DNA from: a virus
Taxonomy: Duplodnaviria > Caudoviricetes
Virus record (IMG/VR): IMGVR_UViG_3300000727_000007
Span: 1 to 64,000 of that record
DNA length: 64,000 nucleotides
Reading direction: 5' to 3' (one strand)
Each line of letters starts with the position of its first letter. Within the stretch, counting starts at the first letter, position 1. Of this stretch, positions 26,115 to 28,289 are shown in pieces. The position numbers were made by a program, and so were the translations under genes. The notes below the pieces were generated by a model. It saw only the letters and a program-made list of their open reading frames with translations, was not told the DNA's origin and made no database searches.

Positions 26115-26188
26115 ATAAGGCTGCGATAGAGAAGAGATACTTCGACGCTTAACCGAAAACCCAAACTCTTCTCAATTGTTCTCCTTAT
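26115..26188 (+). ncRNA. candidate Y RNA 1 (minimal)
   Basis: ataagg/ccttat and gagaagag/ctcttctc stems; conserved GGCTGCGATAG...TACTTCG; upstream of Ro60. Confidence 0.7.
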
Positions 26189-26196
26189 AACACTCA

Positions 26197-26372
26197 TGGG
26201 CGGTGGCTGAATGGAAAAGCGCCAGAAGAAACAGTCTTATTGATTGTTCTTCTCGTTATCTATTTCACTCATATTATTGCCTCTTTGGTAACGAGACTGT
26301 GTAGATAAGACATACTTCGTTCAAGGAGCTGGTCGTCAAGAGACGTGTGGTGGTTCGAATCCACCCCGCCCA
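26197..26372 (+). ncRNA. tRNA-Leu-like scaffold with a permuted Y-RNA stem in place of the anticodon loop
   Basis: tgggcgg/ccgccca acceptor, D arm, cgtc/gacg variable arm, ggtgg-TTCGAAT-ccacc; about 100-nt insert carrying both halves of the repeat in swapped order. Confidence 0.75.
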
Positions 26373-26405
26373 ATTGACCGTTCAAGTTTCGGTCGGTTCA
26401 CATGG

Positions 26406-26521
26406 GATTTGGGTTGCGATAGATAAGGGTTACTTCGTAACGGTATCGAGACTTTATCTATAAAAAGTTTAGCGGTTCAACTCCGCGCTTAAAAAACTCT
26501 TATCGCCAATTCTCCCAAATT
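26406..26521 (+). ncRNA. candidate Y RNA 2 with a tRNA-like domain
   Basis: atttggg/cccaaat and gataagggt/actcttatc stems; conserved motif; internal gcgg-TTCAACT-ccgc T arm. Confidence 0.72.
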
Positions 26522-26537
26522 TTAAATTCATTCTCAC

Positions 26538-26703
26538 GCATTAGGCTGCGATAGAGAAGGGTTACTTCGTACAAAACATATCAGAAAAATATGAAAGAAC
26601 CATGCTTGTGGGCATGCAAAAATAACTAATCCGAGAACACTTGCGTAGCGGATTTAAATAAATATATGCAAGGGTTACCCCTTTTCGCATATTCTCCTAA
26701 TGT
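26538..26703 (+). ncRNA. candidate Y RNA 3 (large loop domain)
   Basis: gcattagg/cctaatgt closing stem; GGCTGCGATAGAGAAGGGTTACTTCG...ACCCCTTTTC..TTCTCC. Confidence 0.7.
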
Positions 26704-26750
26704 TGTTTTTCTCCTTCGTTTTTCGAAGAAAAACAAAAGGTTGTGAAATT

Positions 26751-28289
26751 ATGTCAAAGTTTAATAAACCATTAACAGCGGAACAGGTTGTAAGTCGAAA
26801 ACCTGGTGCAACAACTAATTTTGAAGGTGGATTAGCTTACGAATTAGATATTAAGACTAAGCTAATGAAAATGACAGCAACATCTCTTGTTGGTGAAAAC
26901 AAGTTTTATACTTCAGGAGAGAAAGCTGACTCAGAAATCCTTGACTTAATCCATGCTGTTGCACAGAAAGACCCGGAGTTCATTTTGAAATTAGCATTGT
27001 ACACTAGAGAAGTCTTAAGACTACGTAGTGCACCTGTGATGTTAATCGCAGAAATTGCTAATGCAAATGTGGGTGGAATACCTAACTCTAGAAGATATGT
27101 CGAACGAACAATACAAAGGGTAGACGAAATTACAGAGCTCCTTGCATACCAATTAGAAAGAAACAGCCAAAATCCAAGGAATTCAAAGCTCCCTATGCTA
27201 CTTAAGAATGGTGTTGGTCGTGCTTTTAATAAGTTCGATGAATATCAGTTTGCAAAGTACGATAGGGATGGTGCCGTCACACTCAGAGATGCTTTGTTTA
27301 TGACTCACCCTAAACCAAAAGACGCAAAGCAACAAAGACTGTTCGATAAAATTGTAAACGGCGAGTTAGAAACACCCGAAACATGGCAGACTTACATATC
27401 AGAACATGGTAGCAACAATAAATCTTGGACACACATAGCACCTAAGATGCCAATTTTTGCTTTAGTAAGAAACCTAAGAAACTTACTGCAAAACAACGTA
27501 GACACTGACTTATACACTGATAAACTCAGGAATAAGAAAGTTATCCAAAGGTCTAGAATGTTCCCATTCAGATTCTACAGTGCATATGTAACAGTCGCCA
27601 GAGAAGTTCCAACAAGCATAGAACAAAGAGAAGTCTTAGACGCTCTTGAAGATTCTATAACCCTGAGTATAGCAAACATACCTAAAATTGAAGGTAGAAC
27701 TGCAATATTCTGTGACCTAAGTGGTTCAATGGGTGATACAGTTAGTTCTAAATCTCATGTAAGATATGTAGATATAGGAACACTGTTTGGAGCAATGGCA
27801 GACCAAATATGTGACAAATCTATCGTAGGAGCATTTGGTGAACACTTCGATACAGTAGATATGCCAAAGAGAATGCCTATATTCCAAAAAATGATGCAGT
27901 TTAATAACGTCAACGTAGGGGGCGCAACAAACGCATGGAAGGCAATTGATTGGTTAATCAAAACCAATACAAAAGTTGACAGAGTAATGGTATTTTCAGA
28001 CGAACAAGTATACAATACAGACCATCACTACATAGGATACAGTTGGGGTCCTAAAGACAAATCAGAAACCTTACAAGCAAAAATGCAAGTGTACAGAAAC
28101 AAAATAAACCCTAACGCATACTTACACTCCTTCGACCTTTCTGGTTATCCAACAACCATGATACCTAATGACGACCCAAAATCAAATCTGGTTGCTGGTT
28201 GGAGCGAACAAATATTCAATTACATTGAATTGTATGAAAAAGGCTTTGCTACAATGGTAGATATTGTTGAAAACTATCCGGTGGATTAA
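26751..28289 (+). CDS. rsr: Ro60/Rsr (TROVE + vWA) RNA-binding protein
   Basis: TNFEGGLAY, DPEFILKLALYTRE...LRSAP, FDEYQFAKY, LRDALFMTHPKP, PETW, ALVRNLRN, SRMFPFRFYSAY, DLSGSM MIDAS, FSDEQ, AGWSE; likely start ATG 26751. Confidence 0.95.
   Translation: MSKFNKPLTAEQVVSRKPGATTNFEGGLAYELDIKTKLMKMTATSLVGENKFYTSGEKADSEILDLIHAVAQKDPEFILKLALYTREVLRLRSAPVMLIAEIANANVGGIPNSRRYVERTIQRVDEITELLAYQLERNSQNPRNSKLPMLLKNGVGRAFNKFDEYQFAKYDRDGAVTLRDALFMTHPKPKDAKQQRLFDKIVNGELETPETWQTYISEHGSNNKSWTHIAPKMPIFALVRNLRNLLQNNVDTDLYTDKLRNKKVIQRSRMFPFRFYSAYVTVAREVPTSIEQREVLDALEDSITLSIANIPKIEGRTAIFCDLSGSMGDTVSSKSHVRYVDIGTLFGAMADQICDKSIVGAFGEHFDTVDMPKRMPIFQKMMQFNNVNVGGATNAWKAIDWLIKTNTKVDRVMVFSDEQVYNTDHHYIGYSWGPKDKSETLQAKMQVYRNKINPNAYLHSFDLSGYPTTMIPNDDPKSNLVAGWSEQIFNYIELYEKGFATMVDIVENYPVD

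What the first reader, a model, noticed from the sequence alone, without database searches (positions are those of the whole stretch)
26115..28289. Archaeal-virus Ro60 preceded by four candidate Y RNAs that share one stem but carry different cargo domains
Seen in sequence: the 600 nt upstream of an intact TROVE/vWA gene contain four copies of one motif. The 5' strand is GG(C/T)TGCGATAGA(G/T)AAG(A/G)G(A/T)TACTTCG at about 26119, 26412 and 26544, with the variant GAGACTGTGTAGATAAGACATACTTCG at about 26293. The 3' strand is AC(T/C)CTT.TC...TTCTCC. Stems covary between copies (gagaagag/ctcttctc, gataagggt/actcttatc, ataagac/gtcttat; closing stems ataagg/ccttat, atttggg/cccaaat, cattagg/cctaatg), while the internal loop and TACTTCG stay nearly fixed. 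The enclosed domains differ: a minimal hairpin, a tRNA-like D/T domain, a roughly 100-nt multi-hairpin, and a whole tRNA. Established: bacterial Ro60 (Rsr) genes have Y RNAs encoded next to them, made of a Ro-binding stem plus an effector module. Inference: the virus encodes a modular Ro60 RNP system, one protein with several interchangeable RNA adaptors. I know of no such description for a methanogen virus, but could not check this.
Basis: partly seen in the sequence, partly recalled or inferred. Interest (0 to 1): 0.95.

Follow-up and report, generated by a model that had tools for sequence, protein, structure and literature searches.

The report
Y RNA gene array beside viral Ro60
A provirus of a methanogen (Methanobacteriales) carries, just upstream of its Ro60 gene, four small RNA genes built on the Ro60-partner ("Y RNA") stem known from bacteria; one is a rearranged copy set inside a tRNA-like body, a form not described before.

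Summary
Window 26114-26702 holds four copies of one RNA module, directly upstream of an intact TROVE+vWA (Ro60) gene at 26751-28289.

The module has:
- a closing stem S1;
- a conserved internal loop (5' side YUGYGNA, 3' side ending UUCU);
- an 8-bp stem S2;
- an invariant UACUUC.

Both stems covary: 95.9% of cells are paired against 64% or less in slid controls, and 12 of 14 pairs show compensatory changes. A covariance model of the module hits only next to TROVE genes, always on their strand. This holds in related archaeal-virus contigs, in Arthrobacter phage Atuin and in 80 Bacteroidota rsr loci. In Spirosoma the same stems enclose a YrlA-type tRNA-like domain. The module is therefore the Ro60-binding stem of the known YrlA-like Y RNA lineage, although Rfam's YrlA model does not detect it.

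One correction: copy 2 does not enclose a tRNA. Its strands are in swapped order and sit inside a tRNA-like body (26197-26373), making a circularly permuted YrlA. Such chimeras recur in seven related loci and in haloarchaeal virus HGTV-1, where GenBank annotates it as "tRNA-Asp + intron".

It is a new variant of a known kind.

The parts
26114..26189 (+). Y-like RNA 1: stem module with a minimal hairpin cargo of about 29 nt
   Evidence: R1 hit at 26112-26191, 67.9 bits. S1 6/6 and S2 8/8 paired. The MFE fold shows the same stems, z = -3.7.
26197..26373 (+). tRNA-Y chimera: a tRNA-like body (7-bp acceptor stem, U8, D arm, 4-5 bp anticodon-type stem, long variable arm, T arm, discriminator A) with the Y module inserted in permuted order where the anticodon loop would be
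   Evidence: ARAGORN with introns allowed places it at 26197-26373. Acceptor stem 7/7 paired, T loop UUCGAAU. No Rfam tRNA match at the gathering score; only tRNA-Sec at 19 bits.
26228..26322 (+). Permuted module inside the chimera: S2 3' strand, loop 3' strand, S1 hairpin, loop 5' strand, S2 5' strand, then AUACUUCG
   Evidence: R2 was built without this sequence and still hits it at 40.5 bits, E about 1e-6. S2 8/8 and S1 6/6 paired.
26407..26520 (+). Y-like RNA 3: stem module with a 67-nt cargo that contains a T-arm-like hairpin
   Evidence: R1 hit at 26405-26522, 53.6 bits. It aligns with the T-arm cargo class of L010, L013, L014, L001 and Atuin.
26539..26702 (+). Y-like RNA 4: stem module with a 117-nt multi-hairpin cargo
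   Evidence: R1 hit at 26537-26704, 53.2 bits. The cargo has no clear orthologue in the related loci. The fold of the cargo is uncertain, z = -1.6.
26703..26750 (+). Leader of the Ro60 mRNA. It contains a UUCUCC-type segment, a hairpin, and GGUUGUGAAA just before the ATG, resembling half of a permuted module (tentative).
   Evidence: The same arrangement precedes the TROVE start codon in L001, L010, L013, L014, L015 and L017, with different hairpin stem sequences. Neither R1 nor R2 detects it.
26751..28289 (+). Ro60 orthologue (512 aa): TROVE ring plus vWA domain with a DxSxS MIDAS motif
   Evidence: Pfam TROVE E = 3e-30, vWA_Ro60 E = 5e-6. The closest solved structure is Thermus phage phiLo Ro60 (9KOP/9L5Y), E = 1.5e-31 over residues 20-500; DLSGS aligns with its DVSGS.

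Best explanation
The four elements are genes for Y RNA-like noncoding RNAs that partner the virus's own Ro60 protein. Each RNA has a constant handle and a variable cargo. The handle is S1, a conserved asymmetric internal loop, S2 and UACUUC. It is the local version of the YrlA handle (GNCGAA-type motif, second stem, YUAY). By analogy with Xenopus, Deinococcus and phage phiLo Ro60, the ring's outer surface should bind the 5' strand of this loop and stem. This step is inferred. The cargo differs between copies: a short hairpin, a T-arm domain, a long multi-hairpin, or a whole tRNA-like body. By analogy with known Y RNAs, the cargo would tether Ro60 to different partner proteins or RNAs. This step is also inferred. 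The chimera is a circularly permuted YrlA: the Ro handle is capped by a loop and the tRNA-like acceptor end is open. RNase P, tRNase Z and a CCA-adding enzyme could therefore mature it like a tRNA. The locus lies in an island of 25 tRNA genes with an RlaP-family RNA-repair nucleotidyltransferase. Relatives add an archaeal CCA-adding enzyme and Pth2. The likely role is tRNA or structured-RNA surveillance or protection during infection.
For: Structure:
- Two helices are supported by covariation on an unfitted MAFFT alignment of 14 elements: 95.9% paired against 50-64% when slid, 12 of 14 pairs with double changes, 0 of 500 shuffles as good.
- RNAalifold finds the same helices independently.
- G-U pairs make the structure strand-specific.

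Association with TROVE:
- All 59 R1 hits in 17 viral sources are on the TROVE strand and flank the gene.
- In four whole viral records of 78-194 kb, every hit lies within about 2.5 kb of TROVE.
- R1 gives 107 hits, all on the + strand, in 80 Bacteroidota rsr loci.
- In two 5-6 Mb Flavobacterium genomes the only significant hit lies next to rsr.
- Among 61 Flavobacterium genomes, 2 of 6 with TROVE and 0 of 55 without TROVE have a hit.

Homology to known Y RNAs:
- The Spirosoma element L024:4803-4947 has the same stems around a YrlA-type T arm, acceptor-like stem and D arm.
- The landmarks GNCGAAN0-1G and YUAY appear in the same order and spacing.
- The closest solved homologue, phiLo Ro60, binds two phage RNAs with a stem-bulge-stem and a CGAA bulge encoded upstream of its gene.

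Chimera:
- The tRNA scaffold is conserved with covarying acceptor stems in six loci.
- HGTV-1 has the same arrangement.
Against: - There are no transcript, end-mapping or binding data, so the RNA ends are inferred from S1 only.
- Rfam YrlA and Y_RNA do not match the window, even at E up to 10.
- The exact CGAA, shown to matter 3-4 fold for phiLo Ro60 binding, is absent from all four window copies (they have CGAU or UGUA). It is present in some relatives.
- R1 does not detect the validated phiLo Yrl1/Yrl2 region.
- Most loci were found through their TROVE gene, so part of the association is by ascertainment. Only control for this.
- Methanobacteriales lack PNPase, the known bacterial effector, so the effector here is unknown (from my own knowledge, not tested).
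Confidence: 0.8

Rival explanations
1. The chimera is a real intron-containing tRNA gene. The host splicing endonuclease excises the Y module, which may then be circularised by RtcB. This would yield both a working tRNA and a small handle-only Y RNA, much as the archaeal tRNA-Trp intron yields a box C/D guide RNA.
For: Rfam's tRNA model spans the orthologues in L010 and L011 end to end, at 47-50 bits, with the module as an insertion. GenBank annotates the HGTV-1 copy as 'tRNA Asp (gtc) + Intron'. In L011 and L014, removing the insert after position 37 would leave a 7-nt loop with U33 (reading). Other intron-bearing tRNAs occur in these viruses, for example L011:3353-3479.
Against: ARAGORN assigns a different anticodon and a different intron position (31-37) in every locus, even between the near-identical L013 and L014 bodies. 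The window copy has no U33 and no 7-nt loop solution. Between S2 and the anticodon-type stem there are about 8 nt on the 5' side and about 17 nt on the 3' side, which does not fit two 3-nt bulges spaced by 4 bp (checked by eye only). L011 pairs an AGA anticodon with a class I body.
Confidence: 0.15
2. The elements are cis-acting processing or regulatory structures of a long tRNA/Ro60 precursor. For example, they could be nuclease entry or protection sites, or an autoregulatory leader. They would not be stable trans-acting partner RNAs.
For: The elements lie head to tail with short spacers inside a tRNA array. A TATA-like box is seen about 30 nt before only the first element in L010, L013 and L014. 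A half-module precedes the Ro60 start codon in eight loci, counting the window. In HGTV-1 the last element's 3' stem overlaps the Shine-Dalgarno sequence of the TROVE gene.
Against: Known Y RNAs are also cut from one precursor upstream of rsr in M. smegmatis (PMC4201824). In Bacteroidota and Atuin the elements lie downstream of the gene or between tRNAs. Conserved cargo classes with T arms point to function in trans.
Confidence: 0.07
3. The RNAs are tRNA-like decoys or sponges that act without Ro60. They could act against host tRNA-targeting defence nucleases or tRNA-modifying enzymes, and sit near the TROVE gene only because both belong to a tRNA island.
For: T-arm and full tRNA-like bodies are present. 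The island holds 25 tRNA genes and an RlaP nucleotidyltransferase.
Against: The constant part is not tRNA-like, and it tracks TROVE in genomes that have no tRNA island, such as the Flavobacterium and Spirosoma chromosomes. Minimal copies have no tRNA-like part at all.
Confidence: 0.05

Closest known systems
Bacterial YrlA/YrlB Y RNAs (Chen et al. 2014, PMC4201824; Rfam RF02553)
   Same: They are encoded within a few kb of the Ro60 gene on the same strand, with two or more per locus. The 5' and 3' ends pair. A GNCGAA-type motif lies near the 5' end, followed by a second stem and then YUAY. At least one RNA per locus has a tRNA-like domain. In Spirosoma the very same stem module encloses a YrlA-type domain.
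   Different: The RF02553 model does not score the window. The loop motif here is YUGYGNAG rather than GNCGAAG. UACUUC is invariant. There are 4-9 copies per locus. Most cargos are not YrlA-type. The host is an archaeal virus.
Thermus phage phiLo Ro60 with Yrl1/Yrl2 (PMC12135203; PDB 9KOP, 9L5Y)
   Same: It is the closest solved homologue of the window protein, E = 1.5e-31. It is a phage-encoded Ro60 with several phage-encoded stem-bulge-stem RNAs next to the gene, and binding was shown by EMSA and cryo-EM.
   Different: R1 does not match the Yrl1/Yrl2 region. It gives only two weak candidates downstream of the gene, at 12.5 bits. The phiLo effector is host PNPase, which methanogens lack (my own knowledge).
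[quoted passage not shown]
   Same: The cleaved RNA has an open, CCA-tailed acceptor end with the Ro handle at the other pole. This is the topology that the chimera encodes directly.
   Different: In M. smegmatis it is a two-piece product of cleavage. Here it is one chain with the Ro handle capped by a loop, and processing has not been tested.
Metazoan Y RNAs (Rfam RF00019)
   Same: They have a terminal stem, a conserved 5'-strand Ro contact (GGUCCGA), an internal loop, a second stem and a variable effector loop.
   Different: There is no detectable sequence or model match. The bulged-C helix is not present here.
HGTV-1 'tRNA-Asp + intron' (NC_021328, gene 136)
   Same: It has the same permuted module inside a tRNA-like body, about 3 kb upstream of that virus's TROVE gene. 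Two normal elements are also present.
   Different: It is annotated as an intron-bearing tRNA, and no link to Ro60 is made in the record.

Membership tests
Y RNA / YrlA-like Ro60 partner RNA | Encoded next to a Ro60/TROVE gene, usually on the same strand | tested here: met
   All R1 hits are on the TROVE strand and within about 2.5 kb of the gene.
Y RNA / YrlA-like Ro60 partner RNA | The 5' and 3' ends pair, and a conserved 5'-strand motif (GNCGAAN0-1G / CGAA) lies in or next to an internal loop | tested here: inconclusive
   The end stem and the loop are supported by covariation. The motif here is YUGYGNAG. CGA is present in three window copies, but CGAA is not; CGAAG occurs in relatives L013 and L014.
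Y RNA / YrlA-like Ro60 partner RNA | Conserved YUAY after the second stem | tested here: met
   UUAC or AUAC is invariant in the 14-sequence alignment. The feature is described in PMC4201824.
Y RNA / YrlA-like Ro60 partner RNA | At least one RNA per locus carries a tRNA-like domain | tested here: met
   The chimera has a full tRNA-like body. Copy 3 has a T-arm hairpin.
Y RNA / YrlA-like Ro60 partner RNA | Physically bound by Ro60 and dependent on it for stability | not testable with these tools
   This needs RIP, EMSA or Northern blots.
Rfam YrlA (RF02553) | Score at or above the gathering cut-off of 69 bits | tested here: not met
   There is no YrlA match in the window even at E up to 10. Related Bacteroidota elements reach only 32.8 bits, over the tRNA-like core.
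Ro60 / Rsr protein | TROVE HEAT-repeat ring followed by a vWA domain with a MIDAS DxSxS motif | tested here: met
   TROVE scores 106 bits. vWA_Ro60 scores 26.9 bits, just under its 27.7 cut-off. The alignment to phiLo Ro60 is full length and the DLSGS motif aligns.
tRNA (for the 26197-26373 chimera) | Cloverleaf with a 7-bp acceptor stem, U8, D arm, T arm and a 7-nt anticodon loop with U33 | tested here: not met
   The acceptor stem, U8, D arm and T arm are present. There is no 7-nt anticodon loop, and predicted anticodons are inconsistent across orthologues. The Rfam tRNA model is below its cut-off in the window.
Archaeal bulge-helix-bulge tRNA intron | Two 3-nt bulges on opposite strands, separated by a 4-bp helix at the exon-intron junctions | tested here: inconclusive
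   Inspection by eye of the window, L011, L013 and L014 found no canonical motif; the junction strands are about 8 nt and about 17 nt. No dedicated BHB search tool was available.

The most novel reading that the evidence does not exclude
The tRNA-Y chimera is a distinct, conserved class of Ro60 partner RNA in archaeal tailed viruses, from Methanobacteriales viruses to haloarchaeal HGTV-1. It is a single-chain, circularly permuted YrlA whose open acceptor end is matured like a tRNA by RNase P, tRNase Z and CCA addition, and may even be charged. It would thereby dock Ro60 onto the tRNA-handling or translation machinery. Alternatively, it is spliced to release a circular handle-only Y RNA. Either way, Ro60 RNPs would be physically tied to tRNA biogenesis in archaea, where no Y RNA has been reported.
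Probability: 0.3. Interest if true: 0.8.

Novelty: new variant of a known kind. Interest (0 to 1): 0.62.

Why it matters
Ro60 and its Y RNAs are studied in animals (the lupus and Sjogren autoantigen), in a few bacteria and in one phage. For archaea and their viruses only the protein has been noted.

This locus and its relatives provide three things:
- a sequence and structure model that finds Ro60 partner RNAs which Rfam's YrlA model misses, in archaeal viruses, Bacteroidota and an actinophage;
- natural arrays of 4-9 RNAs with one constant handle and different cargos, which suit a dissection of how cargo directs Ro60;
- a permuted tRNA-embedded form.

HGTV-1 is a cultured virus that carries both normal elements and the chimera, so the predictions can be tested directly.

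Tried and rejected
- Rfam scans of the window, at gathering scores and at E up to 10, gave no Y_RNA or YrlA match. The only hit was tRNA-Sec at 19 bits over part of the chimera.
- A megablast of 12 kb against GenBank phages found no match.
- K-turn or box C/D reading of the internal loop: rejected by eye, because there are no tandem G-A pairs and no C/D boxes.
- A third stem (UUCG with CGAA) beyond UACUUC is present in some minimal copies but not general, so it is not claimed.
- Canonical BHB intron in the chimera: not found by eye, left open.
- R1 with filters off on phage phiLo did not find the published Yrl1/Yrl2 region. It gave two weak candidates downstream of the gene.
- R1 did not score HGTV-1 above E = 0.1. 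Its elements were found by reading the sequence.
- R2 is not specific in tandem arrays: it also scores the junction between one element's 3' strand and the next element's 5' strand. Only hits with complementary S2 strands were counted.
- Relatives of the virus record cannot be drawn by the genome search, so Methanobacteriales cell genomes were not surveyed.
- Mapping of the phiLo RNA-contact residues onto the window protein was attempted from the alignment. The numbering could not be matched reliably, so this was dropped.
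Full report
**What is in the window**

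The 640 nt before the ORF at 26751-28289 contain four copies of one motif.
None is expected in shuffles.
- A variant lies at 26298.
- A script paired each 5' strand with a 3' strand. In all four copies the closing stem S1 is 6/6 paired and the inner stem S2 is 8/8 paired. S1 and S2 flank a conserved asymmetric loop: 5' side YUGYGNA, 3' side about nine bases ending UUCU.
- UACUUC follows S2 in every copy.
- The ORF is a Ro60 orthologue. It has TROVE at 106 bits and the Ro60 vWA domain at 26.9 bits, just under its cut-off of 27.7. It aligns over its full length to phage phiLo Ro60, with the MIDAS DLSGS motif aligned.
- The window carries 25 tRNA genes and an RlaP-family RNA-repair nucleotidyltransferase at 24306-25088.
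- A pseudomurein-binding-repeat protein at 20851-21603 has its best matches in Methanobacteriales viruses. The record is classed as a provirus. The "methanogen virus" context therefore holds.

**Correction for copy 2**

Its 3' strand (26234 onward) precedes its 5' strand (26298 onward). The two strands close on an S1 hairpin. The whole module sits between the two halves of a tRNA-like body at 26197-26373. That body has:
- a 7-bp acceptor stem and U8;
- a D arm with GG;
- a 4-5 bp anticodon-type stem;
- a long variable arm;
- a T arm with a UUCGAAU loop, and discriminator A.

So the module is inside the tRNA-like body, not around it.

**Conservation and structure**

Ro60 relatives at 47-58% identity were fetched: L001, L010, L011, L013-L017. 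Each has 700-1100 nt of non-coding DNA before the TROVE gene, packed with 4-9 copies of the same motif. Some have further copies after the gene.
- A MAFFT alignment of 14 short-cargo elements (A1) was not fitted to any structure.
- On A1, S1 and S2 are 95.9% paired, against 50-64% with slid partners. Twelve of 14 pairs show changes on both sides. None of 500 shuffles reaches the observed values.
- RNAalifold predicts the same two helices on its own.
- G-U pairs are present, so the structure exists only on the TROVE strand's transcript.

**Association with Ro60**

A covariance model, R1, was built from A1.
- R1 gave 59 hits in 17 viral sources. All are on the TROVE strand and flank the gene, including in loci whose Ro60 is only 29-39% identical.
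- In four whole viral records of 78-194 kb, every hit lies within about 2.5 kb of TROVE.
- R1 also finds four elements around the Ro-like gene of Arthrobacter phage Atuin.
- The closest cellular Ro60 proteins are Bacteroidota Rsr, at 35-38% identity. In those 80 loci R1 gives 107 hits, all on the + strand and mostly just after rsr.
- In two whole Flavobacterium genomes the only significant hit is the one beside rsr.
- In a sample of 61 genomes of that genus, 2 of 6 TROVE-positive and 0 of 55 TROVE-negative genomes have a hit. Sensitivity was low there, because the filters were strict and the model was trained on viral sequences.

**Relation to known Y RNAs**

Chen et al. 2014 define YrlA by four features:
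- a GNCGAAN0-1G motif near the 5' end;
- a conserved YUAY about ten bases further on;
- a tRNA-like T / acceptor-like / D domain;
- location near rsr, with at least two Y RNAs per species. These can be cut from one precursor, and in M. smegmatis one is cleaved by RNase P and receives CCA.

The module here has the same order and spacing: YUGYGNAG, then S2, then UUAC or AUAC. In Spirosoma profusum the element L024:4803-4947 has this same module enclosing a textbook YrlA core. Rfam YrlA scores 32.8 bits on that core alone.

The module is therefore the Ro-binding handle of the YrlA lineage in this Ro60 clade, even though RF02553 does not reach its threshold on it.

The closest solved protein, phiLo Ro60, was shown to bind two phage-encoded stem-bulge-stem RNAs next to its gene. 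Each base of their CGAA motif contributes 3-4 fold to binding. The window copies have CGAU or UGUA at that place, so the contact motif is a variant. This is the main sequence-level caveat.

**Cargo**

- Copy 1 is a minimal hairpin, like about 14 elements in the relatives.
- Copy 3 carries a T-arm hairpin. It aligns with a conserved T-arm cargo class in L010, L013, L014 and L001, and with an Atuin element.
- Copy 4 has a long cargo with no clear orthologue and an uncertain fold.
- A separate long-cargo class, with S1 GUCAUG, is shared by L010, L013 and L014.

The picture of a constant handle with variable cargo is real, and the cargo classes are conserved.

**The chimera**

- Seven related loci have the same permuted module in a tRNA-like body.
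- In six of them a script finds 7/7 acceptor pairs with different sequences, plus U8 and a T arm. The seventh, L010, was read by hand.
- A model of the permuted core, R2, was built without the window. It scores the window copy at 40.5 bits.
- In Bacteroidota, R2 scores only junctions between tandem elements.
- HGTV-1, a cultured haloarchaeal virus whose Ro60 is 32% identical, has two normal elements at L018:933-998 and about 3880-3970. Its annotated "tRNA Asp (gtc) + Intron" (L018:1007-1138) contains the permuted module, with S2 7/7 paired.
- Topologically the chimera is a YrlA with the acceptor end opened and the Ro handle closed. This is the shape that M. smegmatis YrlA reaches after RNase P cleavage.
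- Whether the module is a spliced intron is open. Anticodon and intron calls are inconsistent across orthologues, and I see no canonical bulge-helix-bulge motif. L011 and L014 would, however, give a regular loop after excision.

**Mechanism and confidence**

- Shown: a conserved, covarying, strand-specific RNA module that tracks Ro60 genes and is homologous to the YrlA handle.
- Inferred: Ro60 binds the loop and its 5' strand. The cargos tether Ro60 to different partners. The chimera is matured like a tRNA. The system serves tRNA or structured-RNA surveillance during infection.
- I put 0.8 on these being Ro60 partner RNAs. I am far less confident about any specific effector.

**Literature**

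Searches found Ro60 proteins noted in Asgard viruses and Borgs, but no Y RNA for any archaeon or archaeal virus. The library is incomplete, so this is not proof of absence.

**Verdict**

This is a new variant of a known kind: phage and bacterial Y RNA sets are established, while the archaeal-virus setting, the size of the arrays and the permuted tRNA-embedded form are new.

Other first-stage notes on this same window had already listed the chimera and the T-arm copy. They are not independent evidence.

Noticed in passing
window 26703-26750; also L001, L010, L013, L014, L015, L017 just before their TROVE start codons: The Ro60 mRNA leader carries a UUCUCC-type segment, a short hairpin whose stem differs between loci, and GGYUGUGA right before the ATG. 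This is half of a permuted Y module overlapping the ribosome-binding region. It could be a Ro60 autoregulatory site, or simply a structured Shine-Dalgarno region.
   Followed up: partly
L018 (HGTV-1, NC_021328) 1007-1138, 933-998, about 3880-3970: The annotated 'tRNA-Asp + intron' of this haloarchaeal virus is a tRNA-Y chimera, and two unannotated normal elements are also present. The 3' stem of the last element overlaps the GGUGA ribosome-binding site of the TROVE gene.
   Followed up: partly
L022 (Thermus phage phiLo) 4014-4083 and 4204-4289: Two weak R1 candidates (12.5 bits, E = 0.16) lie just downstream of the phiLo Ro60 gene. Both have fully paired S1 and S2 and GUACUUC. They overlap the annotated CDS phiLo_25 and are distinct from the published Yrl1/Yrl2 upstream of the gene.
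   Followed up: no
L016 2958-3016: The called TROVE gene start in this contig (ATG followed by AGUUACUUCG) falls inside a Y-module 5' strand. The 538-aa gene call is probably about 30 codons too long.
   Followed up: no
L014 1357-1725 and 1738-2877: The TROVE gene of this contig is called as two adjacent ORFs of 122 and 379 aa. This suggests a frameshift or an assembly error.
   Followed up: no
L010 about 3120, L013 about 2915, L014 about 395: A TATA-like box (UUAUAUA) lies about 30 nt before the first element of the array only. AU-rich AAAUUCAU-type spacers recur between later elements, for example at window 26517-26530. This pattern fits one promoter followed by processing.
   Followed up: partly
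window 25990-26013 versus 26732-26755: A 24-nt direct repeat at 75% identity copies the Ro60 leader and start codon upstream of the array, where it heads a 16-codon ORF. It may be a remnant of a duplication.
   Followed up: no
window 24306-25088; L010 1972-3132; L013 1670-2920 and 7046-7543: The neighbours are RNA-repair or tRNA-maintenance genes. The window has an RlaP-family nucleotidyltransferase. The relatives have an archaeal class I CCA-adding enzyme and Pth2.
   Followed up: partly
L011 3353-3479: A tRNA-like gene (ARAGORN calls it Thr-tgt) carries a 55-nt insert that lacks the Y module. Ordinary intron-bearing tRNAs therefore coexist with the chimeras.
   Followed up: no
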